A stretch of DNA of 44,729 nucleotides from positions 1-44,729 of IMG/VR virus record IMGVR_UViG_2049941001_000006; one strand, 5' to 3'. Of this stretch, positions 8,020 to 35,069 are shown piece after piece. Numbering within the stretch: position 1 is the stretch's first letter; each line of letters opens with the position of its first letter. The DNA is from a virus. The position numbers and the translations under genes are program-made. Below the pieces are notes generated by a model. That model worked only from the letters and a program-made list of their open reading frames with translations. It was not told the DNA's origin and did no database searches.

Positions 8020-8220
8020 TCAGATGCTCGGCAGCGGGCCGGGCAGGACTAGCTCCTCGCCGGCTTGCCAGTCGCCGGTCCGGCGGTCGATGTGCAGGAT
8101 AGTAAACGGGGTCAGGTTCAGTTCCGAGCGCTGATGCGGGGTTGTCTGACTGCGTGATGTTGCGAGGTGGCTATCCAGCGGCTGGGGTTCCGGGTTGATG
8201 CCCCGGTCAGCAGAAGGCAT
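8020..8220 (-). CDS. Small hypothetical ORF downstream of umuC (66 aa)
   Basis: ATG 8220 overlaps the last 14 nt of umuC. GC3 is moderately high, the product (..NLTPFTILHIDRRTGDWQAGEELVLPGPLPSI) has no recognised motif, and no clear RBS is present. Confidence 0.25.
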   Translation of the reverse strand: MPSADRGINPEPQPLDSHLATSRSQTTPHQRSELNLTPFTILHIDRRTGDWQAGEELVLPGPLPSI

Positions 8221-9493
8221 GCGGCAGATCAGCAATCGACGTCGTGAACCGCCGCGACAGCGATTCCTGCCGCATGCCCCATGCCGGCCTTGCCCGCCAG
8301 CCTGTCGCTGCTGGCCCGATGACACGCCCACCGAAGCGGCGGTTGATGCCGTCCATTACCGCCATCAGCGCATCGTCGCCAGCAGTGGCCGGAGCAAACA
8401 GATCGGCCTGCAGTGCGGTCGGGCGTGCAAGGTCCAGCAGCACCACGCCGGCCTTTTTGTATGCAATGCCGGTGCGGAACATGCCATCGGCCAGCCGGCG
8501 CACGGCAGCCAGCAGCAGGGTGGTGTCGGATGTGGGGCGGGGCAGGGTGAGGGTACGGCTGGGGTGGTGCTGGGGCAGCTCCGGGCGGAACACGTCGCTG
8601 CGGGCGAACACGCCGATGCCGGCGGCCACCAGCCCGCGTGCACGCAGCTTTTCGGCGGCGCGGCTGGCGAAGCTGGCCAGTGCTTCGCCCAAGGCATCGG
8701 CATCGTCAACCCGCTGCCCGAAGGAACGGCTGACGACAATCTGCTGTCTGTCCGGCTCGACATCTTCCATCGCGATGCAGGGTTTGCCCTGCAACTCGCG
8801 CTGTGTGCGCGCCAGCACCACGCCAAATTCACCCAAGATGGTGTCTGGCGTGGCGTCGCGCAGATCCAGCGCAGTGACGATGCCACGTTCGGCCAGCCGT
8901 GGTGCCAAACGCCGACCGACGCCCCACAGTTCGGCCGCCGGGGTGGCTCGCAGCAGGTCGGCCCGTGCAGCGGGCGACAGCGCCGACAAATCGCACACGC
9001 CGCCCAGTTCAGCCGGGTAGCTGCCGGGCTTGCGGATGGCATCCTTGGCCACGTGGTTGGCCAGCTTGGCCAGCGTCTTTGTCGGGGCAATGCCGATGCA
9101 GTTGGGGATGCCCGTCCAGCGGTGCACGCGCTCGCGCAGCTCACGGGCGAATGCCAGCCGGTCGCGCACCGGCGACAGGTCGAGGAACGATTCGTCGATG
9201 CTGTACGGTTCCACCCGCGGAATGGCATCGCGCAGGATGCTCAGCACGCGGGCGCTGATGTCGCCGTAGAGCGTGAAATTGGCCGAACGCACGGCAATCT
9301 GCCGGCGGATGCGCGGCTCGATTTCGTGCAGCGGGTGGCCCATGCGGATGCCGAGCGCCTTGGCTTCGTCGCTGCGGGCGATGGCGCAGCCGTCGTTGTT
9401 GCTCAGCACCACCAGCGGCTTGCCGCGTAGTTCGGGCTGGAACACGCGTTCGCAACTGGCGTAGAAGTTGTTGCCGTCGATCAGGGCGAACAC
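8207..9493 (-). CDS. umuC: DNA polymerase V catalytic subunit UmuC (Y-family)
   Basis: GTG start. MFALIDGNNFYASCERVFQPELRGKPLVVLSNNDGCAIARSDEAKALGIRMG is the canonical UmuC N-terminus, and the 428-aa length fits. Confidence 0.95.
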   Translation of the reverse strand: MFALIDGNNFYASCERVFQPELRGKPLVVLSNNDGCAIARSDEAKALGIRMGHPLHEIEPRIRRQIAVRSANFTLYGDISARVLSILRDAIPRVEPYSIDESFLDLSPVRDRLAFARELRERVHRWTGIPNCIGIAPTKTLAKLANHVAKDAIRKPGSYPAELGGVCDLSALSPAARADLLRATPAAELWGVGRRLAPRLAERGIVTALDLRDATPDTILGEFGVVLARTQRELQGKPCIAMEDVEPDRQQIVVSRSFGQRVDDADALGEALASFASRAAEKLRARGLVAAGIGVFARSDVFRPELPQHHPSRTLTLPRPTSDTTLLLAAVRRLADGMFRTGIAYKKAGVVLLDLARPTALQADLFAPATAGDDALMAVMDGINRRFGGRVIGPAATGWRARPAWGMRQESLSRRFTTSIADLPHAFC

Positions 9494-10320
9494 AGCGGGA
9501 TGACCTCATGCCGTCCGGCCAGCAGCGGGCCGGCGAGGATGTGGTAACCGTCGCGGTCGAACCCGGGGGCCGGCGTTTGCAGCTTGCGGGCGGCCCGCAG
9601 GGTGTCCGCGCTGCCCAGATAGTGCCAGTTGTCCACGACGTGCAGTTGCCGCATGTCTTCGCCGCGCTCGACGATGGCTACCGGGCCGTCATAGGGCCAG
9701 ATGGCCAGCCGCAGGCGATTGAGGGCATGGCGCAGGCGTTCGTCGTGGGCCGGCACCGGCTCACGGTGGCAGCAGATGCCACGGCATTTGCCCAGTTGGG
9801 CGCGGAAACAGGGCTGGCCCGCCGCAACCGGCTCTATGCCCAGTCGCCCGTAGCACAGGCCGGCCTCGTCGGCGATGGCGCGCAAGGCCTCGACGGCGGC
9901 GTGGCGGCTGCCATACACGCCGTACAGCGTGCCATCCGGCGCGCGTTGATGTGATTCCACAATCTCCGGCCGGCCATCGCCTCCCAGCCGGATGGAGCAC
10001 AACCGACGCTGGCGGCGCAGGCGCTTGTTGTGCAGCGGTTGGAGCTGTTTGATCAGCCGCGCTTCCAGCAACTGGGCACCGAGGTCGCCGGCGGTGCGGA
10101 TGCAGTCGATGCGGCGCGCCTGACGCAGCAGGCGGGCTTCGGCGGCGGTGCGCAGGTGAGCCATCACACGGCTGCGAATGTCCACGCTCTTGCCGATGTA
10201 CAGCGGCATGTCGTGCGCGTCGTCGCGGAACAGGTAGACGCCGGGTGCATGCGGCAGATCGGCCAGCGCGGGGCGCAGGTGCTCCGGGTATTCGTAGGGC
10301 GTGGGGTCAGGCGCGCGCAT
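9481..10320 (-). CDS. cho: Cho-like GIY-YIG excinuclease (UvrC homologue)
   Basis: YEYPEHLRPALADLPHAPGVYLFRDDAHDMPLYIGKSVDIRSRVMAHLRT...LLEARLIKQLQPLHNKRLRR...GFDRDGYHIL matches E. coli Cho (YdjQ) block for block, from memory. The gene overlaps umuD by 14 nt and umuC by 13 nt. Confidence 0.85.
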   Translation of the reverse strand: MRAPDPTPYEYPEHLRPALADLPHAPGVYLFRDDAHDMPLYIGKSVDIRSRVMAHLRTAAEARLLRQARRIDCIRTAGDLGAQLLEARLIKQLQPLHNKRLRRQRRLCSIRLGGDGRPEIVESHQRAPDGTLYGVYGSRHAAVEALRAIADEAGLCYGRLGIEPVAAGQPCFRAQLGKCRGICCHREPVPAHDERLRHALNRLRLAIWPYDGPVAIVERGEDMRQLHVVDNWHYLGSADTLRAARKLQTPAPGFDRDGYHILAGPLLAGRHEVIPLCSP

Positions 10321-10801
10321 GGTGGCGTTCGCGGGTGGTGCGGCGGCTCATCTGCCGGGCAACGCCGACCACGGCGAAGATTTCCGGCTCGGCCTCTGCG
10401 GGCAGCACGATGGGCTTGTGGTGCGGGTTGCGGCTGTGCAGCTCGATGCCGGTCGTGCCGACCACAAGCACTTTGCACACCGGCTGGTTGCCGTCCCAAG
10501 TGGCCACAACGATGTCTCCGTTGAGCGGCGTGACCGAGCGATCGACGATCAGGATGTCGCCATCGCAGATGCCGGCCAGCAACATCGAATTGCCCTCGGC
10601 CCGGTACAGGTACGTCGCAGCCGGGTTGCGGATGAGGTGGGCGTTGAGGTCCAGCCAGTCGTCGAGAAAGTCCTCGGCGGGCGACGGAAACCCGGCCCGG
10701 ATGCGCACTCCGCCCAGCGGCAGCGCAAGCGGCGGCGGCTCGATGGCCACCGCGCCGAGCGGGCGGGCGAGGGTTTCGGGTTGGGGGAGGGGTTGAGGCA
10801 T
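10307..10801 (-). CDS. umuD: UmuD (LexA-like S24 self-cleaving peptidase)
   Basis: ATG 10801; an alternative GTG lies at 10813. RAGFPSPAEDF gives the Ala-Gly cleavage site, GNSM the Ser nucleophile, and VCKVL the Lys. Confidence 0.9.
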   Translation of the reverse strand: MPQPLPQPETLARPLGAVAIEPPPLALPLGGVRIRAGFPSPAEDFLDDWLDLNAHLIRNPAATYLYRAEGNSMLLAGICDGDILIVDRSVTPLNGDIVVATWDGNQPVCKVLVVGTTGIELHSRNPHHKPIVLPAEAEPEIFAVVGVARQMSRRTTRERHHARA

Positions 10802-10832
10802 GATGACGTCCACATCGGCAGACGGCCGGATG

Positions 10833-12878: not shown

Positions 12879-13145
12879 ATGCGCATGTGGATGTTGCTGG
12901 GGTGCGGGTTGCTGTCCGGGTGCGCCGCCACCGCCGTCAAGCCGGGCGCGCCCGCCGCGGTGCTGGAGGTGCCGGTGGCCACCTATGTGCCCATCGATGC
13001 TGCGCTGACCGCCCGCTGCGACTGGCCCCGCGATGCCGCGCCCTCGCGGGTGTTCACCGTGGCGGCGGCGCGACGGCGCTGCCTGGAGCGCTACGAGGCC
13101 CAGTTCGAGGCGATCGAGCAGGTCCAGGGCCGGCCGGTGCCCTGA
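12879..13145 (+). CDS. o-spanin (Rz1-like outer-membrane lipoprotein), separate architecture
   Basis: Lipobox MLLGCGLLSG-C, 88 aa, immediately after the i-spanin. Confidence 0.75.
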   Translation: MRMWMLLGCGLLSGCAATAVKPGAPAAVLEVPVATYVPIDAALTARCDWPRDAAPSRVFTVAAARRRCLERYEAQFEAIEQVQGRPVP

Positions 13146-13724
13146 TCATTCCATCACGGCAAGGATGGTGCAGCGGCAAAAGTGCCCGTCGCAATGCTCG
13201 TACGACGGCAATTCGCCCACGGCCTCGATGGGGTGCGGTCCGGCGGCGGCGGCACGGGCGCAGGACGGGCAGCAATCCGGGGCCGACACTACCCGGAACG
13301 CCCGGTACCCGCATTCCAGGTAGTTGACGCGCCGGGCGTGTACCTGGGCCAGCGCGACTTCCTGCGTAACCGTTTGCTGCAGCACATTGCGAGGAGTGTC
13401 CGGGAACCGGCAATGCAGCTTGCGGGCGATATTGGCCGGGTTCATGCCGTCGAATTGACGCTCCTGCAGGGCCTGGCACACGGCATGCCGCAATGGTTCT
13501 GCGGCGGGGTCCAGCTCGGCGCAGCGTGCCGCGTACTGCGTACGAACGCGGTCCTGCGCCCTGGCAATAGTGGTCTGCACCGGGTCAGGTGCCCGCACGG
13601 GCATCGCCCGGGCGCGGCCGGTGATGCCCAAGAACACCCCCTGCAAGAATGCCCCGACGTGGCTCATTGTCTGTTCCCCGGCCAGATGGGCGAGGCCGCG
13701 GGTATCCCCGCGGCCCGCAATCAT
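13146..13724 (-). CDS. Stand-alone MuF / SPP1-gp7-like C-terminal domain protein (paralogue of the portal-fused MuF domain)
   Basis: TQEVALAQVHARRVNYLECGYRAFRVVSAPDCCPSC..GPHPIEAVGELPSYEHCDGHFCRCTILAV aligns with portal-fusion residues SEIAAAQVRGKRDMYRANGYDQYGWVAAPDACPIC..GPYRLDDPEAPLPMTDSHPNCRCSIRAV. ATGA overlap with the upstream lipoprotein gene. Confidence 0.65.
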   Translation of the reverse strand: MIAGRGDTRGLAHLAGEQTMSHVGAFLQGVFLGITGRARAMPVRAPDPVQTTIARAQDRVRTQYAARCAELDPAAEPLRHAVCQALQERQFDGMNPANIARKLHCRFPDTPRNVLQQTVTQEVALAQVHARRVNYLECGYRAFRVVSAPDCCPSCARAAAAGPHPIEAVGELPSYEHCDGHFCRCTILAVME

Positions 13725-14296
13725 TCTCCCGACAGGAATCTCAGCAGTCCAACGTCGTTGAGAATCTTCCTCAGCAGGTCGGCTAGCCCGGAGTTGATGT
13801 CGTCCGAATTCTTCCCGGCCGTCGGGACCACGACCACACGGCGCTCATTCTCCGTTCGGTACATCTGCTCGAAGTTGTCACCAGGCCGACGAGCAACGGC
13901 CTTGATCGCGCCGTTGACATGAATACCGCCTGTCCAGAACCCCGTGGACGTCGAATACTCAAAATCACGGAGTTCGAGCTTCAGCTCCGTTGGCTCATCC
14001 CTTGAATCTGATACTGCGAACCCCTTCGCCTTCAGCCCGGCAGCCACCTTGTCGTGAACGACCACGGCCAGATCCCTATCGGACTTGATTTCCGCCGCGC
14101 GGGCGATGGCCGCCGTCCCCCGGCGGCCAAGGCTGTTGCTGGCGCGCTCATCCACCACGATCAGCCCCACGGCTTTCCCCGCCCCCATGTCCGACGGGAC
14201 AACCTCTACATGAGGATCTAATTGCACGGTCTGGGAGTTGAATGCACACCCCGACAGCCCTGCGACGATGATCACCGTAAAGATGGGACCTTTCAT
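13721..14296 (-). CDS. YajG-family lipoprotein (moron in the repressor operon)
   Basis: ATG 14296 lies behind GGAGGAGG. Lipobox IIVAGLSG-C. ..LDPHVEVVPSDMGAGKAVGLIVVDER..LKLELRDFEYS..GGIHVNGAIKAV resembles the E. coli YajG family. GC is visibly lower than in the neighbouring genes. Confidence 0.7.
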   Translation of the reverse strand: MKGPIFTVIIVAGLSGCAFNSQTVQLDPHVEVVPSDMGAGKAVGLIVVDERASNSLGRRGTAAIARAAEIKSDRDLAVVVHDKVAAGLKAKGFAVSDSRDEPTELKLELRDFEYSTSTGFWTGGIHVNGAIKAVARRPGDNFEQMYRTENERRVVVVPTAGKNSDDINSGLADLLRKILNDVGLLRFLSGE

Positions 14297-14377
14297 GCCT
14301 CCTCCTGATTGGTTGATTGATTGCGTTGCACGGTCAGGCCCCACCAGCGTGGCCCCGGCCGTCCAATGCATGACGTT

Positions 14378-14710
14378 TCATTGCAGCCCCAAGAACTGTA
14401 TCAACCCCCGGCGCTGTTGGTCGTCCAGCCCGCGCAGCCATCCCTGCAATTTCGCCAGGTCGGCCGACTCATACGGCGGTGCAGTGTCGCACACACATGC
14501 CCCCGCCGCCGGGACGGGGAAAAGCAGCGCGTCTGCCGACGCAAGGTACAGCTGGCACAAGCGCCTGAACGTCTCGAGCTGTGGAAGGTACTTGTCATTC
14601 TCCCATGCTGAGAGAGCGCCCTTCGTGACTTCCAGCTCGGCCGCGGCCTGCAGTTGCGACAACCCTGCCTTTTCGCGGGCAGCGCGCATCCGAGCGCCCA
14701 ATGAATCCAT
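14378..14710 (-). CDS. CI-like repressor (XRE-family HTH, no S24 peptidase domain)
   Basis: MDSLGARMRAAREKAGLSQLQAAAELEVTKGALSAWENDKYLP is an XRE HTH. The gene is divergent from the cro-like gene. The first ATG is at 14710; the longer track ORF starts at a TTG. Confidence 0.8.
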   Translation of the reverse strand: MDSLGARMRAAREKAGLSQLQAAAELEVTKGALSAWENDKYLPQLETFRRLCQLYLASADALLFPVPAAGACVCDTAPPYESADLAKLQGWLRGLDDQQRRGLIQFLGLQ

Positions 14711-14754
14711 GGCGGGAGTATAGGCAGGCTCAACCCGCCGGGGGTTAGCTAGTG

Positions 14755-14783
14755 TTGACAACGCGGTTTAGCTCATCTAACCT
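14755..14783 (+). promoter_or_regulatory. Candidate early rightward promoter (TTGACA-17 nt-TAACCT) in the cI/cro switch region
   Basis: TTGACA at 14755-60 and TAACCT at 14778-83, with the cro ATG only 10 nt downstream. GTTAG/CTAAC half-sites (GGTTAGCTAG, GTTTAGCTCATCTAAC) are candidate operators. Confidence 0.35.
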
Positions 14784-14792
14784 GCGGTCAAC

Positions 14793-15026
14793 ATGAAAAC
14801 GACCTCCTCCAGCACCCCCCATCCGCTGCGCCGCCTGCGCATCAAGCACAACCTCTCGCAGGCAGCCCTTGGGAAGAAGCTGCGCCCCGCCGCAACCAAG
14901 GGGGCTATCTCGCAGTGGGAGAACGGCATCACCGCCCCCAAGCCGGGCACTGCCATCCAGTTGGTCGAATTGTTCAAGGGCGAGCTGTCCATGGACGATC
15001 TCTACCGACATGGGAGGGCCCGCTGA
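14793..15026 (+). CDS. Cro-like XRE HTH regulator
   Basis: LRRLRIKHNLSQAALGKKL..KGAISQWENG is an HTH motif. 77 aa, and the first gene of the rightward operon. Confidence 0.8.
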   Translation: MKTTSSSTPHPLRRLRIKHNLSQAALGKKLRPAATKGAISQWENGITAPKPGTAIQLVELFKGELSMDDLYRHGRAR

Positions 15027-15787
15027 TGCGCGCCCTCGGCTACATCCGCGTCAGCACCCGCGGGCAGGCCCAGGACGGGCACAGCCTGGAGGTGCAGCAG
15101 GCCCGGCTGCAGGCCTGGTGCATTGCCCGCCAACTGGAGCTGGTCGGCACCGTGGTGGACGCCGGGGTCAGCGCCAGCAAGCCGCTGGCAAGGAGGCCAG
15201 GCGGCGCGCGGCTGCTGGCGCGCATGGCCGCCGGAGAGGCCGACACAGTGGTGGTGGTGACCATCGACCGGCTGTTCCGCGATGCCCGCGACGGCCTCAA
15301 CACGTTGCTGGGCAGTGACGGGCGGCCCGGTCTGCCCGTGCAGTCGGTCGCAGAGCCGCTGGACACCTCCAGCGCGATGGGGCGCTTCATCACCCATGTC
15401 TGGCTGGCCAAGGCCGAGCTGGAGCGCGCCCAGACCTGCGAGCGCACACGAGCGGTGGTGCAGCGCCGGCGGGAGGCCGGGCTGGTGGTCGGCACCACGC
15501 CCTACGGCACCCAGGTCATCGGTGGCCGCCTGTACCGCGATCCGGCCACCTGGCCGCAACGCGAGCTGATCATCCAGCTGCGCGGGCAGGGCGCCGCGGC
15601 GCGCCCGTACAGCGAGATCGCCGCCGAGCTGCGGCGGCGCGGCATCGCCTCGCCGAGCGGGAAGCCCGGCTGGGGCAAGACAGCAATCGCGCGCGTGGTG
15701 AGGACTCATGGCGCGCTCAAGGATCTGCCGGCGGCGCCGGCCGGTCACGAAACCCCCGTTTCTGCTGCCGAGGAGGCAAACCAATGA
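15026..15787 (+). CDS. Serine recombinase (resolvase/invertase family, 253 aa)
   Basis: MRALGYIRVSTRGQAQDGHSLEVQ carries the catalytic Ser motif, followed by ..VVVVTIDRLFRDARD..MGRFITHVWLAKAELERAQTCERT. ATGA overlap with cro. Confidence 0.85.
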   Translation: MRALGYIRVSTRGQAQDGHSLEVQQARLQAWCIARQLELVGTVVDAGVSASKPLARRPGGARLLARMAAGEADTVVVVTIDRLFRDARDGLNTLLGSDGRPGLPVQSVAEPLDTSSAMGRFITHVWLAKAELERAQTCERTRAVVQRRREAGLVVGTTPYGTQVIGGRLYRDPATWPQRELIIQLRGQGAAARPYSEIAAELRRRGIASPSGKPGWGKTAIARVVRTHGALKDLPAAPAGHETPVSAAEEANQ

Positions 15788-16913: not shown

Positions 16914-17156
16914 ATGATCGTGAGCAATCTCACCACAACACCCGCCTCGGAGCAACCTCCCGCCTGGCCGAAGGTCAGCCTGCGGTTGATGGTCCGCAGT
17001 CGCGCCCGGATCGATGCGATCAGGCACGGCGTGGACCCGGCGCCGGCCGTTGCGGCCGCCGAGGCCGCATGGCGCCAGCATCGCACCGTCCGTGCCGCCC
17101 TGCATGCCGCCTGGGCCGCCACCGACGCCATGGCCGGGCAAGGGGGGGCGCAATGA
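16914..17156 (+). CDS. Hypothetical early protein (80 aa)
   Basis: ATG lies behind GAAGGAGA. Confidence 0.5.
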   Translation: MIVSNLTTTPASEQPPAWPKVSLRLMVRSRARIDAIRHGVDPAPAVAAAEAAWRQHRTVRAALHAAWAATDAMAGQGGAQ

Positions 17157-17443
17157 CCCACGAGGCCGAGCCGCGCTGGTCCTTCTGCGGAATCCCGGGC
17201 CCGCACGTTGTGTTTGCCGGCCCGCGCACGAGGGCCGAGTTCGAACGGCTGCCGCTGGAGCCCGTCGTCCACGACTGGGTTCCCGACCAGGACCCGGTCG
17301 TGGCGCCGAGGGGCGACCAGCGTGCCTGGGAGCGGCGCTGCACGGTCAAGGTCCTGGCCGACGCAGAAACCGGCATCGACGTGATTTTCCAATGGTTCGA
17401 CTACCGCCTGGCCGAGCGCCAGGGTGGCGACGGGGAGGGCTGA
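17153..17443 (+). CDS. Hypothetical early protein (96 aa)
   Basis: ATGA overlap with the upstream gene. Confidence 0.45.
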   Translation: MTHEAEPRWSFCGIPGPHVVFAGPRTRAEFERLPLEPVVHDWVPDQDPVVAPRGDQRAWERRCTVKVLADAETGIDVIFQWFDYRLAERQGGDGEG

Positions 17444-17445
17444 CC

Positions 17446-18387
17446 ATGGATGAGCTGCCCATCCCCGGCGACATCTCCACCCTGCAGTACCAGTTCATCG
17501 AACATCGGAGGCTGCGCGGCGCGTGCCTCAACACGCTGCTGGCCTATCAGTCCGACCTGACGCGGCTGGCCGCGTTTCTGCAGCGCTGGGACATCACGCT
17601 GGTCCAGTTGATCAGCGAGCGTTTGATCAATCAGTGGCTCGACGAGGGCCTGGCACACCTGGGCTGGTCGCGGCGGACGGCGGCGCGGAGGCTGTCATCA
17701 GTGCGGGCGTGGCTGACCTGGTGCCGGGGGCAGGGGTTGTTGCGCCACGACCCCACCGCAGGCGTGCGCATCCGGTTCCATGCGCGGCGCGTGGTGGCAC
17801 CGGAGATGTCGGCGCTCAAGGCGATGATCGCCGGGATCGGGGAATCCGACCCGGTGGACCTGCGGGATCGCGCGATCCTGCTGCTGTTGCTGGATGCGGC
17901 GCTGCGCGCCAACGAGGTTGTGCTGCTCGACGCGGCGGCTGACAGCCCCAGCGGCTATGTCGTCGACGAGGGCCGGCTGCGCGTCTGCGTGCGCCCCAAG
18001 GGGGGCGACGCAGGCGAGGCCGACGTGGTTGGCATCGAGCCGGTCACCGCCGCTGCGGTGCGCGCCTGGCGGGAGTGCCGGGGGACGTTGGCACGGGCGG
18101 ACGAGCCGGCGCTGTTCGTCAGTCGCCGCGGGCGGCGCATGAGCCGCCAGACCCTGCACCTGATGGTCAAGGCGCGAGGCACCGAGGCGGGCATGCCCGG
18201 GCTGCACGCCCACCTGTTGCGACATCGCCGCCTCGGCGAGGTGGTCGAAAAGGCCGGGCTGGACGCCGGGGCCGCCCATGCGCGCCACCGGCAGAAATCC
18301 ACCACCGTCAACGTCTACGGCGCGCATGCCGCGGAGGTCCAGCGTCGGGCCATCCGCACGCTGGCGCCATTGGGAGAGCTGCCATGA
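17446..18387 (+). CDS. Tyrosine recombinase, XerC/D-like (no. 1)
   Basis: An N-terminal SAM-like domain (LNTLLAYQSDLTRLAAFL) is present. Catalytic pattern: ALRANE (Arg), VRPKGG (Lys), HAHLLRHRR (H-x-x-R), ARHRQKSTTVNVY (His..Tyr). Confidence 0.85.
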   Translation: MDELPIPGDISTLQYQFIEHRRLRGACLNTLLAYQSDLTRLAAFLQRWDITLVQLISERLINQWLDEGLAHLGWSRRTAARRLSSVRAWLTWCRGQGLLRHDPTAGVRIRFHARRVVAPEMSALKAMIAGIGESDPVDLRDRAILLLLLDAALRANEVVLLDAAADSPSGYVVDEGRLRVCVRPKGGDAGEADVVGIEPVTAAAVRAWRECRGTLARADEPALFVSRRGRRMSRQTLHLMVKARGTEAGMPGLHAHLLRHRRLGEVVEKAGLDAGAAHARHRQKSTTVNVYGAHAAEVQRRAIRTLAPLGELP

Positions 18388-28078: not shown

Positions 28079-28412
28079 TGGCTAAGTGCCTGAAATTGCT
28101 GGCAAACGCGGTTGTGCAAGGGGCGCCACAAGGCGCGGTGGCGGCGCTGCGCTGCCCGCGGCTGTTGGGCGGTCGCTGGGGGGGCTCGGCGCATGCACCA
28201 CAATGGTGCAAAACCGAACCGGCCAACCGGGGGCTGCAACCCGTTGATTCTGCGGCGGTTCCCCGTGCCCTGCCGGTCGGGGCGGCACGGTGGCCTGTGC
28301 CAGTGAGCCCCCCCCCTTCCGATCCGGGCAGGCGGGCCCTGGGTCGCCGAGCTATTGCCCCCTCGAAAAATGGGAGGGGATTTGGGGGGCGCGTGCCGCC
28401 CCGGGGTGCGGT

Positions 28413-29573
28413 ATGAGCTCGCCGGGGCAGGCGCGAGAGTTGCCGGGGGCGCTGCCGTCGGCGGTGATGCAGGCCCTGCAGGGGCTGCCGAACGGGCCAC
28501 AGTTGCCGGCCTACCGGGCGATGCTGCTGGCCGAGCACGCCAGCTTCGCCACGGTCATGCGGCGCGTGGAGCGTCTCGGGATGGCGCCATCAGCCCTGGC
28601 CGAACTGTGGCTGTGGCTGGCGCACCTGGTCATCGACATGGGGTCGCGGCCGTCCACCACCGGGCAGAGCTATGCACGGACGGTCGGGCGGTTCCTGGGC
28701 TGGGCGTCATCGGCCGGGGTGGACTACGCCGCGGCGACCATCGGCGATTTCGATCGCTGGCAGCGCTGGCTGGCGATCGAGATGCGTTGCGGCCCGGCCT
28801 GGCGCCGGCAGCAGGTGCAGGCCCTGCGCAATTTCTACGATTGGCGGCGGAGTCGAGGCCTTGCACGAGAAAACCTTGCGGCCGACGTGCGCGGGCCGAG
28901 GGTGAAGCCGAGGCCCGCGCGGCGGTACACCGACGAACAGCTGCGCGCGCTGTTCAGGGTGGTGGATCAGGCGCGTGAGCCGGTACGCACCCGTGACCGC
29001 TGCGCGCTGCTGCTGCTGCTGGCTGCCGGCCTGCGTCGCGAGGAGTTGTCCAGCCTGCGCCTGTCGCAGCTGGAGCTGACCCGGCGCAAGGGCGTGGTGC
29101 ACGTGTTCGGCAAGGGGGCGAAGGAGCGCGACGTGCCGTTCGAGGGGCCGGTGGTCGAGGCGCTGCATGCCTGGCTGGCCGCTCGCGAGACGCTGCCGTT
29201 TCTGGTGGACCAGGAGGCGCTGTTCGTGGCGCTGACGTCGCCATCGCGCGGGCAGTCGCTGTCGCTGCGCAGCGTGGACTCGCTGGTCGTCCACTACGCC
29301 CGCATTGCCCGGCTGCGCGAGTGGGGGGTGCATCGATTCCGGGTCACGTTTGCCACGCAGCTCTACGACGACGGTGCGGACATCGAGACGATCCGCGCCC
29401 TGATGGGGCACGAGAGCATCGAGACCACCCGCCGCTACCTCGCGGTGTCCGAGCGCGCCCGGCGCACTCGGTTGAGCGCCGAGCGCCAGCACCGGGTGCT
29501 CGGGACGGCGTCCAGCGGGACGCCGCTGTGGTGGCGGCTCGCCACCGGGGAGTTGGGCCGTGACTACGATTGA
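28413..29573 (+). CDS. Tyrosine recombinase, XerC/D-like (no. 3)
   Basis: GLRREEL (Arg), FGKGAKERDVP (Lys), HRFRVTFAT (H-x-x-R), LMGHESIETTRRYL (His..Tyr). The first ATG with a sensible N-terminus is 28413. Confidence 0.85.
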   Translation: MSSPGQARELPGALPSAVMQALQGLPNGPQLPAYRAMLLAEHASFATVMRRVERLGMAPSALAELWLWLAHLVIDMGSRPSTTGQSYARTVGRFLGWASSAGVDYAAATIGDFDRWQRWLAIEMRCGPAWRRQQVQALRNFYDWRRSRGLARENLAADVRGPRVKPRPARRYTDEQLRALFRVVDQAREPVRTRDRCALLLLLAAGLRREELSSLRLSQLELTRRKGVVHVFGKGAKERDVPFEGPVVEALHAWLAARETLPFLVDQEALFVALTSPSRGQSLSLRSVDSLVVHYARIARLREWGVHRFRVTFATQLYDDGADIETIRALMGHESIETTRRYLAVSERARRTRLSAERQHRVLGTASSGTPLWWRLATGELGRDYD

Positions 29574-31042: not shown

Positions 31043-32919
31043 TGCGCCAGCGGTCGCCCGTGGGTCTCGTGCAGGCGCAGATGCTCGATCGCGGGGTCTA
31101 CGACGCGGCCGAGTTCGATGCATGGATGGCGGCGCAGGGATGGGCGTGGAAATGCCTGGAGCGTGGGGATTACGGCATCACCCTGGACGAGGCGCTGGTG
31201 ATGTTCACGTTCGAGGACCCGCTGCGCTGGGCGGAAACCTACCTGTTCGAGCCAGACACCGGCGAACCGTATCGGTTCTGGGATTACCAGCGCCCGAGCG
31301 TGCGCGCCTGGCAACAGGACGTGATCCACCAGGACGGCGCCGAATGTGGCAAAACCCGCGAGATCATTGCCCTGGTGGCCTGGGCGGGGTGCACCGCCGT
31401 CGGCGGCCGCATCGCCAATCCGTGGTCGCTGATTGCCGCGCCCCAGCAGACGCACCTGGATGAAATCATCCTCGCACTGGAGGAGCAGTTCGGCGTGGCA
31501 GACGGTGCCGGGCAGAAGACGTTGATCCAGCATTTCTGGCTCAAGCCGAAAAAAACCCCGCACGTCATGCACCGATTCCTGGCCCCGAATCCGATCCGCC
31601 CGGATCGGCCAAGCATTGCCCGCGCCTACTACCGTCCGGGCGGCCATGACGGCGAGGCATTCCGCGGCGTGCACGTCAACGCTTTCGGTCTGTTCGACGA
31701 AGCGGCGAAGGTCAAGAACAAGGTGATTTTCAGCGAGTTCTGGCGCGCACTGAAGCCGGGCTGCCGTGCGCGGGTCTATTCGGTGCCGGATGGCGACCGC
31801 GGCAGCGAGTATTTTCGGTTGACGCAGACTGCGCAGGAGGGGTTGCCGCCCGGGAAGCGGGGTTACCGCCTGTTTCGCTGGCAGCAGACGATGAAGCCCG
31901 CGCCGTTCTGGTCGCCCGAGCGCGACGCCGAGATGGTGCGCCGGTTCGGTGGTCGCAACACCCCGGGCTATCAGCGCAACGTCCTCGGCGAGCACGGCCA
32001 GGCGGAAAATCCGGTCTGGCCCTGGGGGGTCCTGCTGCCGAACGTGGTGGATCGCCCGGATTACCGGGTGGTCAAACTGCATGCTGACAGCGAGGCCGAC
32101 CGGCTGGCGGTGGAGGTCCATGCGGTGGACCTGAGCATGCAGGACGGCCGCAAGATCGGCAGCTATCGCACCCTGTACGACGACGCCGAGCCGCTGCGCC
32201 CGCTGCTGCGGGGGCGCGACGATGACCGCCGCGAGGCCATGCGCGCAATTCTGCGTCCGTACATCCGCGGCGCGGCGATGGGGGTGTTCTGGGCGGGGGC
32301 CGACCTGGGCGAGCGCAACGACCCGACCGAGATCGTGCTGAGCGAGCAGGTCGGCGGCACCTTCGTGGACCTGGTGCGGATCAAGGCCATCGGGTTCCCG
32401 TACCACCTGCAGGAGGAGCTGATCGCCGCATTGGACGGGCTGTACGGGCATCTGCCGTACTGGGGGGCCGACCTGGGCAGCGCCGGCACCACGGTGGTCA
32501 AGGACCTGATCGGCGTGGATCGGTTCGCCGATTGTCGATTCGAGGACCGCCTGATCGGCTTCCACTTCCAGCAGTCCGTCGAATGCATCGGCGAGGACGG
32601 GCAGGTGCTGCAGGAGGAGGACAAGCGCAGCGGCGAACAGATCACACTGACGGCCCCGGCCAAGCACTGGGCGACCCAGTGCATCAGCGCCAGGCTGCAG
32701 TCCGGCGGCTATGCGCTGCCCTATGACCCCGATGTCCTCAATGCCATGGCCACACAGACCGCCCGCGAGGGGGCCAAGTGGCCGATCTACAGCAAACAGG
32801 ACGACCACATCCCCGATGCGCGCCGGCAGCAGATGCTGCGCCGGTTGCGCGCCCTGCAGGACGACGGCTACGGCACGGACGTGTTCGGCAGCAGCCTGGT
32901 CCGGAGGAATGCCGCATGA
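31042..32919 (+). CDS. terL: Terminase large subunit
   Basis: Walker A-like DGAECGKTRE. The 625-aa product lies immediately upstream of the portal and has a nuclease-half-like acidic C-terminus. Confidence 0.85.
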   Translation: MRQRSPVGLVQAQMLDRGVYDAAEFDAWMAAQGWAWKCLERGDYGITLDEALVMFTFEDPLRWAETYLFEPDTGEPYRFWDYQRPSVRAWQQDVIHQDGAECGKTREIIALVAWAGCTAVGGRIANPWSLIAAPQQTHLDEIILALEEQFGVADGAGQKTLIQHFWLKPKKTPHVMHRFLAPNPIRPDRPSIARAYYRPGGHDGEAFRGVHVNAFGLFDEAAKVKNKVIFSEFWRALKPGCRARVYSVPDGDRGSEYFRLTQTAQEGLPPGKRGYRLFRWQQTMKPAPFWSPERDAEMVRRFGGRNTPGYQRNVLGEHGQAENPVWPWGVLLPNVVDRPDYRVVKLHADSEADRLAVEVHAVDLSMQDGRKIGSYRTLYDDAEPLRPLLRGRDDDRREAMRAILRPYIRGAAMGVFWAGADLGERNDPTEIVLSEQVGGTFVDLVRIKAIGFPYHLQEELIAALDGLYGHLPYWGADLGSAGTTVVKDLIGVDRFADCRFEDRLIGFHFQQSVECIGEDGQVLQEEDKRSGEQITLTAPAKHWATQCISARLQSGGYALPYDPDVLNAMATQTAREGAKWPIYSKQDDHIPDARRQQMLRRLRALQDDGYGTDVFGSSLVRRNAA

Positions 32920-35069
32920 ACCTGAACCCCATCGATTGGCTGCGCGCCAAGCAGGCCCCCCCGCACGACCCCACGCGCAACCAGGGCGGAGCGGTGGCCA
33001 CCAGCATCCGCGATGTGCAGGCCCTGGGTATCTGGCACGACAGCATCGGCGCCTGGCAGCCGCGCACCGTCTCGCCCTGGCTGTACGAAGCGCTGAAAGA
33101 GGCGATCCCGATGCTGGATGCCGGCATCGGCCGCATGGTCACGCTGGACGGCATCCTGGAGGTCGAGGGTGGCAACGATGCGTTGGTCGCCGAGATCGAG
33201 GAATGGATGCGCAACATCCCGGTCAACGACGTCGAGAGCGGCTACCAGGCGTTCTATGCCAGCCAGGGCGAGGAGCTGTACGAGCAGGGGCATGGCATCG
33301 CCGAGATCATCTACGACGCGAAAGGGCGCGACGTGATCGGCCTGCGCGTCGCCGACAGCAAGGGCACCGCGTTCGTCCGGGAGGAGGACCGCATGCGCGT
33401 GTTCTATCGCGCGCCCTCGGTCTGCACTGACGGGCGTCCTGATGGGCTGGCGCAGGTGGAGGCCATCCTGCAGGGGCGCGTGCGCAGTGCCATCGGCGCC
33501 AGCCTGCTGCTTGAGGTTGGCTATGTCGAGCTGGACCCTCGACAGCTGGTGATCGCGGTCAACCGCCCGGAAGCGGACAACCCCTACGGCACCAGCCTGC
33601 TGCGCAGCGTCCCGTTCGTCTCGCAGATCCTGCTGCGCATGCAGAACGCCACCGGGCAGGTCTGGACTCGCTTCGGCGACCCGTCATTCCACATCCACTA
33701 CGGAACAAAATCCGCGCGCGTGACCAGCGCAGATGCCCAGAAGCGCGCCGAAACCATCGCCCGCGACCTGGCCCGTGCCATGGAGGACAAGGCCCGCGGC
33801 CACAGCGTCGATCTAGCCACCGGGGCCGGCATGAACGACACCATCACCATCGACGTGATCGGCGCGGTCAGCGAGGCGCTGCAGATCGAGATGCCGGCCA
33901 AACACATGATCGAGCAGTTGGTGGCCGCCTTCGGCCTGCCGGCGTGGATGCTGGGCGTGAGCTGGTCGCAGGCGGCCGGCATCGCCGAACCCCAGGCCGA
34001 GCTGGTGCTGCAGGATGCCAAGACGCGGTTCGCCCGGCGCCAGCCAGGGCTGGCCCGGCCCATCGCGGCCATGCTGCGAGCCCGGCGACGCACATGGAAA
34101 CCCGGCGACTGGGACGTGGTGCAGCGCCTGCCGTCGATCACCGACCGCGTGAAGGGCGCGCAGGCCGAGTTCCTGCTGGCGCAGGCGGCCCTGGTGCGGG
34201 GCAACGCCGCTGCCGGCAGTGTCGCGACCGACGAATCCCCGCAGGGGCTGGACAACATCATGCGCGCCGCTCGGCCCCGGACCGCGCATGCCCATGCGCA
34301 TGTGGCCAAGGCGAACGGCCGCGACGACGATGAGCCCGAACCATGGGCCGAGGACGACCCCGAGCTGCCGCGCATCGAGGCCGGCACCATCGCCGCGCTG
34401 CTGCGGCTATGGCGCGGCCTGCGCGATGACGTACTGCGCGCCCTGGGCCTGACCACACTGGCCGCGGCAGGCGATGATTTCGTGTTCGACCTGGCGGCCA
34501 TGGCCGACCTGCTGCTGCGCGGGCAGGGGGCCATCACCCGCATGGCCGAGCAGGTTCTGGCCGGCAGCATGCGCAGCTATGACCGCGGCAGTGCCAATGC
34601 CGCCATCGAGATTGCCGCCGGGTTCGATGACCCGGCCGTGCAGGCCGCCATCGCTGCCGGCCGCGAACGTGTCAATGCCGAGTTGCGGCACCAGGGCATG
34701 GCGCTGGTCCGCAATGGCATGGCGCGCGCCTACAGCACGCAGATCGTGGCGGCGCTCGCCAGCGGCGAGTTCGACGGCGTGAACCCTGTCATCGTCGCCG
34801 ATCGACTGCGTCAGCGATTCGGAGCGGGCGACTACAACTGGGAACGGCTGGCTCGCTCCGAGATCGCCGCCGCGCAGGTCCGCGGAAAACGCGACATGTA
34901 CCGCGCTAACGGCTATGACCAATACGGCTGGGTGGCCGCGCCGGATGCCTGCCCCATCTGTCATGGCCTGGCGGATGGCGGCCCCTACCGCCTGGATGAC
35001 CCTGAGGCCCCGCTGCCGATGACCGATAGCCACCCCAATTGCCGCTGCAGCATTCGTGCGGTGTCGTGA
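32916..35069 (+). CDS. Portal protein fused to MuF / SPP1-gp7-like head-morphogenesis domain
   Basis: GGAGGA RBS with an ATGA overlap with terL. The 717-aa product has the C-terminal MuF signature ARSEIAAAQVRGKRDMYRANGY..APDACPICHGL..DSHPNCRCSI. Confidence 0.8.
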   Translation: MNLNPIDWLRAKQAPPHDPTRNQGGAVATSIRDVQALGIWHDSIGAWQPRTVSPWLYEALKEAIPMLDAGIGRMVTLDGILEVEGGNDALVAEIEEWMRNIPVNDVESGYQAFYASQGEELYEQGHGIAEIIYDAKGRDVIGLRVADSKGTAFVREEDRMRVFYRAPSVCTDGRPDGLAQVEAILQGRVRSAIGASLLLEVGYVELDPRQLVIAVNRPEADNPYGTSLLRSVPFVSQILLRMQNATGQVWTRFGDPSFHIHYGTKSARVTSADAQKRAETIARDLARAMEDKARGHSVDLATGAGMNDTITIDVIGAVSEALQIEMPAKHMIEQLVAAFGLPAWMLGVSWSQAAGIAEPQAELVLQDAKTRFARRQPGLARPIAAMLRARRRTWKPGDWDVVQRLPSITDRVKGAQAEFLLAQAALVRGNAAAGSVATDESPQGLDNIMRAARPRTAHAHAHVAKANGRDDDEPEPWAEDDPELPRIEAGTIAALLRLWRGLRDDVLRALGLTTLAAAGDDFVFDLAAMADLLLRGQGAITRMAEQVLAGSMRSYDRGSANAAIEIAAGFDDPAVQAAIAAGRERVNAELRHQGMALVRNGMARAYSTQIVAALASGEFDGVNPVIVADRLRQRFGAGDYNWERLARSEIAAAQVRGKRDMYRANGYDQYGWVAAPDACPICHGLADGGPYRLDDPEAPLPMTDSHPNCRCSIRAVS

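What the first reader, a model, noticed from the sequence alone, without database searches (positions are those of the whole stretch)
13146..14710. Repressor-operon cargo: YajG-like lipoprotein translationally coupled to a stand-alone copy of the phage's own MuF domain
Downstream of the cI-like repressor, on the same strand (the position of rexAB/sieB-type exclusion genes), lie two genes.
- A lower-GC YajG-family lipoprotein.
- A 192-aa protein that overlaps it by ATGA.

The C-terminal 70 residues of the 192-aa protein align motif for motif with the MuF/gp7 domain fused to this phage's portal: E-[IV]-A-x-AQV, GY, APDxCPxC, GP, LP, H..CRC-x-I-x-AV. Its N-terminal part is unrelated.

A lysogen-expressed truncated paralogue of a head-morphogenesis domain could act as a dominant-negative decoy against superinfecting relatives. 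It could also act as a sensor of incoming phage assembly, with the envelope lipoprotein as partner. I know of no described exclusion or defence system with this composition.

The operon ends base to base against the convergent o-spanin gene (stops at 13143-45 and 13146-48) with no terminator between them.
Basis: partly seen in the sequence, partly recalled or inferred. Interest (0 to 1): 0.65.

Follow-up and report, generated by a model that had tools for sequence, protein, structure and literature searches.

The report
Free MuF domain in repressor operon
Behind its repressor gene this temperate phage carries a small free-standing copy of a head-assembly (MuF) domain from a rare, undescribed family that always sits in that position, next to an unrelated lipoprotein gene acquired separately; it probably acts in competition between phages, but that is untested.

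Summary
On the minus strand, 14710 to 13146, lie a cI-like XRE repressor, a YajG-family lipoprotein and a 192-aa ORF homologous to the MuF domain fused to this phage's portal (BLASTP E=1e-16; profile-profile 99.9%; same predicted fold).

Three corrections:
- The similarity covers about 145 residues, not 70.
- The used start is probably ATG 13667, not the ATGA overlap.
- The protein is not a recent copy of the phage's own MuF. It belongs to a separate clade of free "mini-MuF" proteins (bootstrap 95-98).

The proposed YajG + MuF two-gene system is not supported.
- All 9 clade members with known context, plus a second free-MuF lineage, lie at the 3' end of a repressor operon in related phages. 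None of the others has YajG.
- The closest YajG relatives follow other prophage repressors without MuF.
- Two phage contigs, 95-98% identical on both flanks of the gene, differ by a clean swap of mini-MuF for an unrelated zinc-ribbon membrane protein.

Both genes are therefore independent, exchangeable accessory cassettes in the slot behind the repressor.

Function is inferred only. The likeliest role is a lysogen-made portal-binding decoy against other phages. I found no published description.

The parts
14378..14710 (-). cI-like XRE-HTH repressor, 110 aa from ATG 14710 (gene callers: 103 aa from 14689; longest ORF from TTG 14761). It has no S24 peptidase domain. Its C-terminal tail, ...LQGWLRGLDDQQRRGLIQFLGLQ, is shared with the repressors of all related loci.
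   Evidence: Pfam HTH_31/HTH_3; PHROG transcriptional repressor; N-terminus and tail aligned with relatives.
14711..14792 (.). Divergent control region between the repressor and cro. It holds direct repeats CGGGGGTTAGCT / CGCGGTTTAGCT 23 nt apart and a GTTGTCAAC palindrome, which are candidate operators.
   Evidence: No sigma-70 consensus match was found.
14793..15026 (+). cro-like HTH protein, 77 aa, followed by a serine recombinase (15023-15787). The same pair flanks the repressor in all relatives.
   Evidence: Pfam HTH_3 and Resolvase; relatives.
13721..14296 (-). YajG-family lipoprotein, 191 aa, with lipobox LSGC and lower GC. It is an independent accessory cassette inserted between the repressor and mini-MuF.
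   Evidence: PF03923 E=1.4e-18; GC 0.60; 97 homologues, the closest ones behind other prophage repressors without MuF.
13146..13724 (-). Mini-MuF: a free-standing MuF (SPP1 gp7-like) domain. The ORF is 192 aa; the probable product is 173 aa from ATG 13667. Residues 47-190 form the MuF core with the motif C152-x2-C155 ... H177-C178 ... C183-R-C185.
   Evidence: BLASTP against own portal E=1e-16; hhalign against canonical MuF 99.9%, E=3e-32; AF2 pLDDT 81.9, best BFVD matches are MuF or minor capsid proteins; clade of free mini-MuFs.
34530..35069 (+). MuF domain fused to the C-terminus of the portal protein (whole gene 32778..35069). This is the canonical paralogue in the head module.
   Evidence: TIGR01641 56.6 bits against a cut-off of 39.65; PHROG portal plus minor head protein; AF2 gives the same order of secondary-structure elements as mini-MuF.
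12879..13145 (+). o-spanin (lipobox LSGC), the last gene of the convergent lysis cassette. Its stop codon abuts the stop codon of mini-MuF.
   Evidence: A homologous o-spanin end is convergent to mini-MuF in L017.

Best explanation
Shown:
- Bases 13146-14710 are the lysogenic maintenance operon of a temperate siphophage-type genome distantly related to 'Microcystis phage MACPNOA1'.
- It holds a cI-like XRE repressor followed by two unrelated accessory cassettes that recur separately elsewhere.
- The first is a YajG-family lipoprotein. The second, at the 3' end, is a mini-MuF.
- Mini-MuF belongs to a rare, old clade of free-standing MuF/gp7-like domains. Its members lie in repressor operons, not beside the portal gene where MuF genes normally are.
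- Mini-MuF keeps the fold and the Cys/His cluster of MuF. It has lost the two arginines of the R-x-x-R-[ST]-E motif that are invariant in canonical MuF domains.
- It can be swapped for an unrelated membrane protein without any change in the repressor.

Inferred:
- Both cassettes are made in the lysogen from the repressor promoter and act in conflicts between phages.
- The lipoprotein acts at the envelope, as a superinfection-exclusion or host-fitness gene.
- Mini-MuF acts as a mimic of the portal partner. The only demonstrated activity of a MuF protein is tight binding to the portal oligomer, which carries it into the procapsid.
- A free, functionally crippled MuF made in advance by the prophage would occupy that site on the portals of superinfecting phages and lower the yield or infectivity of their progeny.
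- The resident phage would be buffered because its own MuF is tethered in cis to its portal, and because the operon is shut off on induction.

The confidence given (0.5) is for the whole statement. The anatomical and evolutionary part alone I would put near 0.85, and the portal-decoy mechanism alone near 0.25-0.3.
For: Homology and fold; 3 of 8 clade members hit Pfam Phage_Mu_F weakly.

Family: exhaustive HMMER over 1.84 billion representatives gives only 30 hits, and the best are 118-172 aa proteins. The NJ tree puts the window protein with them (bootstrap 98 and 95), apart from its own portal's MuF.

Context:
- All 9 distinct clade members with context lie 3' of a repressor that carries the same C-terminal tail and is divergent from cro plus a serine recombinase.
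- Five are directly adjacent to the repressor (4-nt and 8-nt overlaps; gaps of 0, 4 and 7 nt) and a sixth (L005) follows a 73-nt gap. Three follow one intervening envelope-protein gene, each of a different family (window; L017; L019/L023).
- A second lineage of free MuF (L027/L029, 48% identical to P0024) sits in the same slot behind a PDZ lipoprotein.
- Control: the canonical relative P0025 lies right after a portal gene, as the literature describes for MuF genes (PMC5576092, PMC5512222).

Exchangeability: L022 and L023 are 98.4% and 94.9% identical on the two flanks, but mini-MuF is replaced by a zinc-ribbon/TM protein. MACPNOA1 and about 11 IMG/VR relatives have the repressor family without MuF.

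YajG independence.

Lost arginines: alignments.

Portal binding by gp7, and about 25% infectivity without it: PMC6316719, section 13.

Precedent for a prophage protein that poisons an invader's packaging: TerI (bioRxiv 10.1101/2025.02.27.640495).
Against: - There are no expression data, and no promoter or terminator consensus was found. Operon membership is inferred from strand, spacing and synteny.
- The functional step rests on SPP1 gp7, a distant relative. Loss of gp7 costs SPP1 only about 4-fold in infectivity.
- All of the roughly 20 IMG/VR relatives whose portal match reaches the C-terminus also have MuF fused to the portal. The intended target of a decoy is therefore not obvious.
- Most contexts are short contigs from one phage lineage, so the conserved position is partly shared ancestry.
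- PADLOC gives nothing meaningful.
- The tree is a simple NJ tree on about 165 columns.
Confidence: 0.5

Rival explanations
1. Two-component system. The YajG lipoprotein and the MuF protein work together, as envelope partner plus cytoplasmic sensor or decoy, in the manner of RexB/RexA.
For: The two genes are adjacent on the same strand, with an ATGA overlap of the longest ORFs. In every mini-MuF locus with enough flank, some envelope-protein gene lies beside it.
Against: - Those envelope proteins are unrelated to each other and differ in topology: lipoprotein, secreted, TM, PDZ lipoprotein. They sit on either side of mini-MuF.
- None is YajG.
- Envelope proteins fill the same slot in most relatives that lack MuF.
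- YajG relatives follow other repressors without MuF.
- A lipoprotein anchored beyond the inner membrane cannot touch a cytoplasmic protein.
- The likely start at 13667 removes the overlap.
Confidence: 0.05
2. Regulatory partner of the repressor. Mini-MuF modulates the switch, for example as an ImmA-like inactivator or an anti-repressor held in check. It might sense portal protein or DNA damage and trigger induction, which this repressor cannot do alone because it lacks an S24 domain.
For: The gene lies immediately after, or overlaps, the repressor gene in 6 loci. The repressor lacks an autocleavage domain. All partner repressors share one C-terminal tail.
Against: - A repressor gene within a 98.4% identical flank works with the cassette replaced by an unrelated protein.
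- The same repressor family, with the same tail, occurs without MuF in MACPNOA1 and about 11 IMG/VR loci.
- The protein has no HExxH or other protease motif (read from the sequence) and matches no peptidase family.
Confidence: 0.12
3. Block to DNA entry. The protein uses the DNA-binding property reported for gp7 and an N-terminal amphipathic peptide to sit at the membrane. There it traps or misroutes incoming phage DNA, giving classical superinfection exclusion rather than poisoning of assembly.
For: - gp7 is cited as a DNA-binding protein (title of Stiege et al. 2003, listed in PMC5576092 and PMC6316719).
- The motif M-x5-FL(R/Q)G..G followed by a Pro/Ala-rich linker is conserved in 4 clade members.
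- The slot is otherwise filled with envelope proteins.
Against: The N-terminal peptide is absent from the 118-146 aa members and is modelled with low confidence. No DNA-binding motif was identified. The arginines that might contact DNA are the ones lost.
Confidence: 0.12
4. Role in the resident phage's own life cycle. A free MuF subunit is needed for the phage's own head assembly or for establishing lysogeny, and merely happens to be encoded at the end of the repressor transcript.
For: The protein is a paralogue of a virion domain. The second complete genome that has a mini-MuF also has a portal-MuF fusion.
Against: The gene is on the strand opposite to all late genes and convergent with them. 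It is absent from most close relatives with the same portal-MuF and is cleanly swapped out in L022. It is therefore dispensable for the virion.
Confidence: 0.08
5. Non-functional remnant of a duplication, or a spurious ORF in GC-rich DNA.
For: GC-rich DNA yields many long ORFs. No curated family model matches the protein.
Against: The ORFs are intact in more than 10 diverged loci at 30-40% identity, with 16 invariant columns including all the cysteines. GC3 is 0.80 in the coding frame against 0.71 and 0.52 in the other two. The AF2 model is confident.
Confidence: 0.03

Closest known systems
MuF minor head proteins (SPP1 gp7, Mu gpF; Pfam PF04233, TIGR01641)
   Same: Homologous core domain: hhalign 99.9%, the same order of secondary-structure elements (H-H-H-H-E-H-E), and the same D..C..C / GPY / CRC motifs.
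   Different: - Encoded in the repressor operon, not next to the portal gene.
- Only 118-192 aa.
- Both arginines of the R-x-x-R-[ST]-E motif are lost.
- An extra cysteine is present (PHC..CRC in place of SHP.CRC).
- Not detected by the curated models.
- Presumably made in the lysogen rather than late in infection.
MuF polymorphic toxins of temperate phages (Jamet et al. 2017, PMC5576092)
   Same: A MuF domain in temperate phages. A link between MuF proteins and lysogeny has been speculated.
   Different: There is no C-terminal toxin extension and no immunity gene, and the gene is not in the head module.
Repressor-operon exclusion genes: lambda rexA/rexB, P22 sieB (from established knowledge)
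   Same: Accessory genes lying 3' of the repressor on its transcript and expressed in the lysogen.
   Different: No sequence similarity (PADLOC). Here the cargo is not a fixed pair but a slot with exchangeable single cassettes.
TerI of the Listeria prophage system TERi (bioRxiv 10.1101/2025.02.27.640495)
   Same: A small protein encoded by a prophage that lets the invader's lytic cycle run but spoils its packaging or assembly, giving protection at the population level. This is the proposed logic for mini-MuF.
   Different: The target of TerI is the terminase, not the portal. TERi has dedicated self-immunity proteins. Relatedness was not tested. The mechanism for mini-MuF is inference only.
Lipoproteins of lysogeny modules that exclude superinfecting phages (Ltp of TP-J34, PMC3952083; Cor and Llp, from knowledge)
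   Same: The YajG-like gene is a lipoprotein gene in the lysogeny module directly behind the repressor. The same holds for its closest relatives.
   Different: It belongs to a different protein family (PF03923). No exclusion phenotype is known for any YajG protein. No phage in the INPHARED collection carries one.
ImmR/ImmA pairs of repressor and anti-repressor protease (from established knowledge)
   Same: A gene immediately after an XRE repressor that lacks an autocleavage domain.
   Different: No metalloprotease motif or family match. The gene is dispensable for the repressor (cassette swap).

Membership tests
MuF / SPP1 gp7 superfamily | Match to the curated family model (PF04233 or TIGR01641) above its cut-off | tested here: not met
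   The 192-aa protein has no hit even at E=10. 3 of 8 clade members hit PF04233 weakly, best E 7.3e-6. The portal's C-terminus passes TIGR01641.
MuF / SPP1 gp7 superfamily | Homology to bona fide MuF domains by sensitive comparison | tested here: met
   BLASTP E=1e-16 to its own portal's MuF. hhalign of the mini clade against canonical MuFs gives 99.9%, E=3.2e-32 over 142 columns.
MuF / SPP1 gp7 superfamily | MuF fold | tested here: met
   AF2 model with pLDDT 81.9. Nearly all top BFVD matches are MuF, minor capsid or portal-fusion proteins, probability 1.0, E from 5e-4. The order of secondary-structure elements matches that of the portal's C-terminus. No solved structure exists for comparison.
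MuF / SPP1 gp7 superfamily | Conserved R-x-x-R-[ST]-E motif | tested here: not met
   Both arginines are invariant in the canonical set (A6). They are replaced in every member of the mini clade (V-x-Q-E). The second arginine is also lost in the L027/P0024 lineage.
MuF / SPP1 gp7 superfamily | Gene in the head-morphogenesis module beside the portal gene | tested here: not met
   The gene is about 19 kb from the portal gene, on the opposite strand, in the repressor operon. The same holds in 10 of 10 relatives with context. The control P0025 does follow a portal gene.
MuF / SPP1 gp7 superfamily | Binds the portal and is carried into procapsids | not testable with these tools
   Needs biochemistry or virion proteomics.
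MuF polymorphic toxins | C-terminal toxin domain after the MuF domain, followed by a small immunity gene | tested here: not met
   The protein ends 7 residues after the CRC motif. The next gene is the convergent o-spanin.
YajG lipoprotein family (PF03923) | Pfam match above the gathering score, plus a lipobox | tested here: met
   67.6 bits against a cut-off of 25. Signal peptide with LSGC.
YajG lipoprotein family (PF03923) | Equivalog of E. coli YajG (NCBIfam PRK11627) | tested here: not met
   36.2 bits against a cut-off of 242. It is a family member, not an orthologue.
RexAB-type or other catalogued defence systems | Match to a PADLOC model | tested here: not met
   Only a chance-level ZorC hit (E=0.0025, 15 bits) for mini-MuF and none for YajG.
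ImmR/ImmA | Zn-metalloprotease (HExxH, COG2856-type) encoded after the repressor | tested here: not met
   No HExxH in the sequence. No peptidase family hit.
Type II toxin-antitoxin pair (XRE antitoxin plus toxin) | Obligate adjacent pair | tested here: not met
   In 4 loci another gene lies between the two. In L022 the partner is swapped while the repressor gene lies within a 98.4% identical flank.

The most novel reading that the evidence does not exclude
Mini-MuF is a new kind of weapon between phages. It is a crippled, free copy of the portal-docking MuF domain, made constitutively by the prophage. It loads onto the portals of superinfecting phages and yields defective progeny. The resident phage is immune because its own MuF is covalently fused to its portal. 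At least two MuF lineages have been recruited to the slot behind the repressor, and both have lost the second arginine of the conserved R-x-x-R-[ST]-E motif. That would point to repeated selection for this trick.
Probability: 0.25. Interest if true: 0.75.

Novelty: new variant of a known kind. Interest (0 to 1): 0.55.

Why it matters
MuF/gp7 is one of the most widespread phage domains, yet its function is still largely unknown (PMC5576092). A clade that has left the head module and settled in the lysogeny operon gives a handle on what the domain binds.

If the decoy idea is right, it adds mimicry of the portal partner to the few known defences encoded by prophages that act on assembly. It would also suggest one reason why portal-MuF fusions exist.

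The locus also shows the region behind the repressor in this phage group as a cassette-swapping hotspot. The cassettes include lipoproteins, membrane proteins, zinc-ribbon proteins and mini-MuF. This makes the slot a place to look for new exclusion genes, including a prophage-borne subgroup of YajG, a lipoprotein family of unknown function.

Tried and rejected
- Word-indexed protein search with the 192-aa protein found only itself. With the clade alignment it added only P0031.
- Scans for close relatives in viral contigs found none for either gene.
- The genome-contig scan gave one 54-residue match in a Verrucomicrobiota MAG (L012). The clade HMM does not detect it, so I took it as chance.
- Alignment A2 was too diverse for the search for related loci.
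- tblastn against 50,697 phage records found only the portal-MuF of MACPNOA1 for mini-MuF and nothing for YajG.
- The PDB fold and sequence searches found no relative. The best hit was an Hpy99I zinc-site segment at E=0.11.
- A degenerate DNA pattern for P-G-x-P-H-C-x-x-C-R-C gave 1 true locus in viral contigs.
- The promoter and terminator scan and a fold of the operon's 3' end gave nothing.
- Literature searches for MuF in lysogeny modules, for YajG in prophages and for the SRA runs SRR330069/70 found nothing relevant.

Rejected readings: a toxin-antitoxin pair, an ImmA-like protease and a decaying duplicate. The reasons are in the rival explanations and the membership test.
Full report
**The observation**

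The window is a complete temperate siphophage-type genome. It holds:
- tail genes at 0.9-7.9 kb and a tape-measure gene at 41.7 kb;
- a lysis cassette at 11.4-13.1 kb;
- early genes with a methyltransferase, a replication protein and recombinases;
- a portal gene at 32.8-35.1 kb.

Three genes read on the minus strand from 14710 to 13146.

- Repressor: an XRE-HTH protein without an S24 domain, divergent from a cro-like gene.
- YajG: a lipoprotein of family PF03923 (E=1.4e-18). Its real start is ATG 14296, preceded by aggagg and followed by an LSGC lipobox.
- The 192-aa ORF, whose stop codon abuts the stop of the convergent o-spanin gene.

No terminator-like structure lies there. YajG has lower GC than its surroundings: 0.60 against 0.68, GC3 0.72 against about 0.85. 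The 192-aa ORF has GC3 0.80 in frame, like the portal's MuF domain at 0.79.

**Is the 192-aa protein a MuF domain?**

Yes. The evidence is:
- BLASTP against the phage's own portal-MuF fusion gives 34% identity over 148 residues (47-190 against 618-762), E=1e-16.
- A profile of the protein and its short relatives aligns with a profile of canonical MuF domains at 99.9% probability, E=3e-32.
- An AlphaFold2 model is confident (pLDDT 81.9, above 86 for residues 41-170). Its best matches among predicted viral structures are nearly all MuF, minor capsid or portal-fusion proteins.
- A model of the portal's C-terminus has the same order of helices and strands.
- No solved structure resembles it.

The curated Pfam and NCBIfam models miss the protein, so it is a divergent member.

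**The start codon**

Four relatives begin with M-x5-F/L-L-R-x-hydrophobic-x-G, followed by a linker rich in Pro and Ala. The window protein matches this in register from M20. ATG 13667 has GGGGA 7 nt upstream. The ATG of the ATGA overlap has its purine run directly against it. The product is therefore probably 173 aa, and translational coupling to YajG is doubtful.

**What family is it?**

An exhaustive HMMER search of 1.84 billion representative proteins found only 30 hits. The best ones are 118-172 aa proteins, not portal fusions.

In NJ trees the window protein groups with nine such short proteins (bootstrap 98, and 95 after adding more sequences). Its own portal's MuF sits in a different clade with bootstrap 100. 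It is thus not a recent copy of the phage's own domain.

The clade has its own signature:
- P-G-x-P-H-C-x-x-C-R-C in place of D-S-H-P-x-C-R-C.
- V-x-Q-E in place of the R-x-x-R-[ST]-E motif, whose two arginines are invariant in the canonical set.

**Genomic context, the key result**

All nine distinct clade members whose context could be read lie at the 3' end of a repressor operon. These are the window, P0002, P0003, P0004, P0005, P0008, P0012, P0031 and an IMG/VR phage.

- The repressor is divergent from cro plus a serine recombinase, exactly as in the window.
- All these repressors share a C-terminal tail...Q-R-[RK]-G-L-[LI]-x-F-[LI]-G.
- In five loci mini-MuF directly follows or overlaps the repressor gene; in a sixth (L005) a 73-nt gap separates them.
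- In three loci one envelope-protein gene lies between them: YajG in the window, a 183-aa secreted protein in L017, and a 94-aa membrane protein in L019/L023.
- A second lineage of free MuF (L027/L029, 48% identical to P0024) is closer to canonical MuFs. It occupies the same slot behind a PDZ lipoprotein.
- As a control, the canonical relative P0025 lies right after a portal gene, as the literature describes for MuF genes in general (PMC5576092, PMC5512222).

**Are YajG and mini-MuF a pair?**

No.
- No other mini-MuF locus has YajG.
- The closest YajG relatives (75% and 58% identical) sit right behind other prophage repressors with no MuF. One is next to a BstA-type gene.

**Is mini-MuF a required partner of the repressor?**

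No.
- MACPNOA1 and about 11 of 13 IMG/VR relatives have the same repressor family without it. They carry lipoproteins, secreted proteins, membrane proteins or zinc-ribbon membrane proteins in that slot instead.
- Contigs L022 and L023 are 98.4% identical upstream (membrane-protein gene, repressor, cro, recombinase) and 94.9% identical downstream (lysis genes). Between those flanks the 380 bases holding mini-MuF in L023 are replaced in L022 by an unrelated 172-aa zinc-ribbon/TM gene.

The region behind the repressor is therefore a hotspot of exchangeable accessory cassettes. The window happens to hold two of them.

**Mechanism**

The following are shown: homology, a distinct clade, a fixed position, exchangeability, and loss of the conserved arginines.

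The following are inferred: expression in the lysogen and a role in competition between phages.

The only experimentally known property of a MuF protein is that SPP1 gp7 binds the portal tightly. That binding carries it into procapsids, and virions that lack it are only about 25% infectious (PMC6316719).

My best guess is a portal-docking decoy made in advance by the prophage. It would spoil the heads of superinfecting phages. This is analogous in logic to TerI, a prophage protein that blocks the packaging of invaders (bioRxiv 10.1101/2025.02.27.640495). The resident phage's MuF is fused to its portal, as in all of the roughly 20 relatives whose portal match reaches the C-terminus, including the other complete genome that has a mini-MuF. 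That fusion could shield the resident phage. It also leaves the natural target unclear.

The rivals are a regulator of the switch, a block to DNA entry, a role in the phage's own assembly, and a remnant. I weigh them in the rival explanations above.

**Novelty**

I found no description of MuF domains in lysogeny modules or of YajG genes in prophages. The domain and the idea of accessory genes on the repressor transcript are both known. The combination, and the clade itself, appear to be new. The family is rare, with about a dozen sequences in the collections searched, and it is confined to one phage lineage.

**Caveats**

- Most contexts are contigs of 1-3 kb.
- The alignments behind the models hold 11-14 sequences.
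- There are no expression data.
- The host is unknown. The spanin DNA is 66-68% identical to phages of Xanthomonas and Xylella.

Noticed in passing
window 8207-10813 (-): A cassette that resembles the SOS-mutagenesis genes lies inside the phage, between the tail-fibre genes and the lysis genes. It holds a UmuD-like S24 peptidase (10307-10813), a Cho/UvrC-like nuclease (9481-10320) and a Y-family polymerase with IMS, IMS_C and DUF4113 domains (8207-9493).
   Followed up: partly
window 14378-14470 (repressor C-terminus); L001 28636-29001; L004-L033: All repressors of this phage group share a C-terminal tail motif (L..[WF]...L...QR[RK]GL[LI].F[LI]G), whether or not a mini-MuF follows. It is probably an oligomerisation helix.
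   Followed up: partly
L022 3561-4078 versus L023 3699-4078: Two IMG/VR phage contigs, 95-98% identical on both flanks, differ by a clean replacement of mini-MuF with a zinc-ribbon/TM protein. Proteins with a similar C-terminal domain occur after mini-MuF in L010. MACPNOA1 has a zinc-ribbon/TM protein in the same slot.
   Followed up: yes
L027 662-2418 (= L029): A second, independent lineage of free MuF (185 aa, with the DSHPGCVC motif, 48% identical to P0024) lies behind a repressor and a 226-aa PDZ-domain lipoprotein.
   Followed up: partly
window 13587-13667; P0002, P0012, P0031 N-termini: A conserved N-terminal peptide, M-x5-FL(R/Q)G..G, followed by a Pro/Ala/Ser-rich linker, is present on some mini-MuFs and absent from the 118-146 aa members. 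It may be an amphipathic targeting or interaction peptide.
   Followed up: no
L014 1439-2960; L015 339-6148: The closest YajG relatives lie next to defence-type genes: a protein with a BstA_C domain in L014 and a Type ISP restriction enzyme in L015.
   Followed up: no
window 15023-15787, 17014-18387, 28290-29573: The genome carries three recombinases. A serine recombinase lies directly after cro, an arrangement conserved across the group. There are also two tyrosine recombinases. Which one integrates the phage is unclear.
   Followed up: no
window 14711-14792: The intergenic region between cro and the repressor holds direct repeats CGGGGGTTAGCT / CGCGGTTTAGCT 23 nt apart and a GTTGTCAAC palindrome. 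These are candidate operators.
   Followed up: no
L003 (SRR330070 contig, 3127 bp), window about 12.4-15.5 kb: In one public sequencing run the assembled contig covers only the repressor operon and its immediate flanks. If that run were RNA-seq, it would be evidence of expression in the lysogen. The type of run could not be checked.
   Followed up: no
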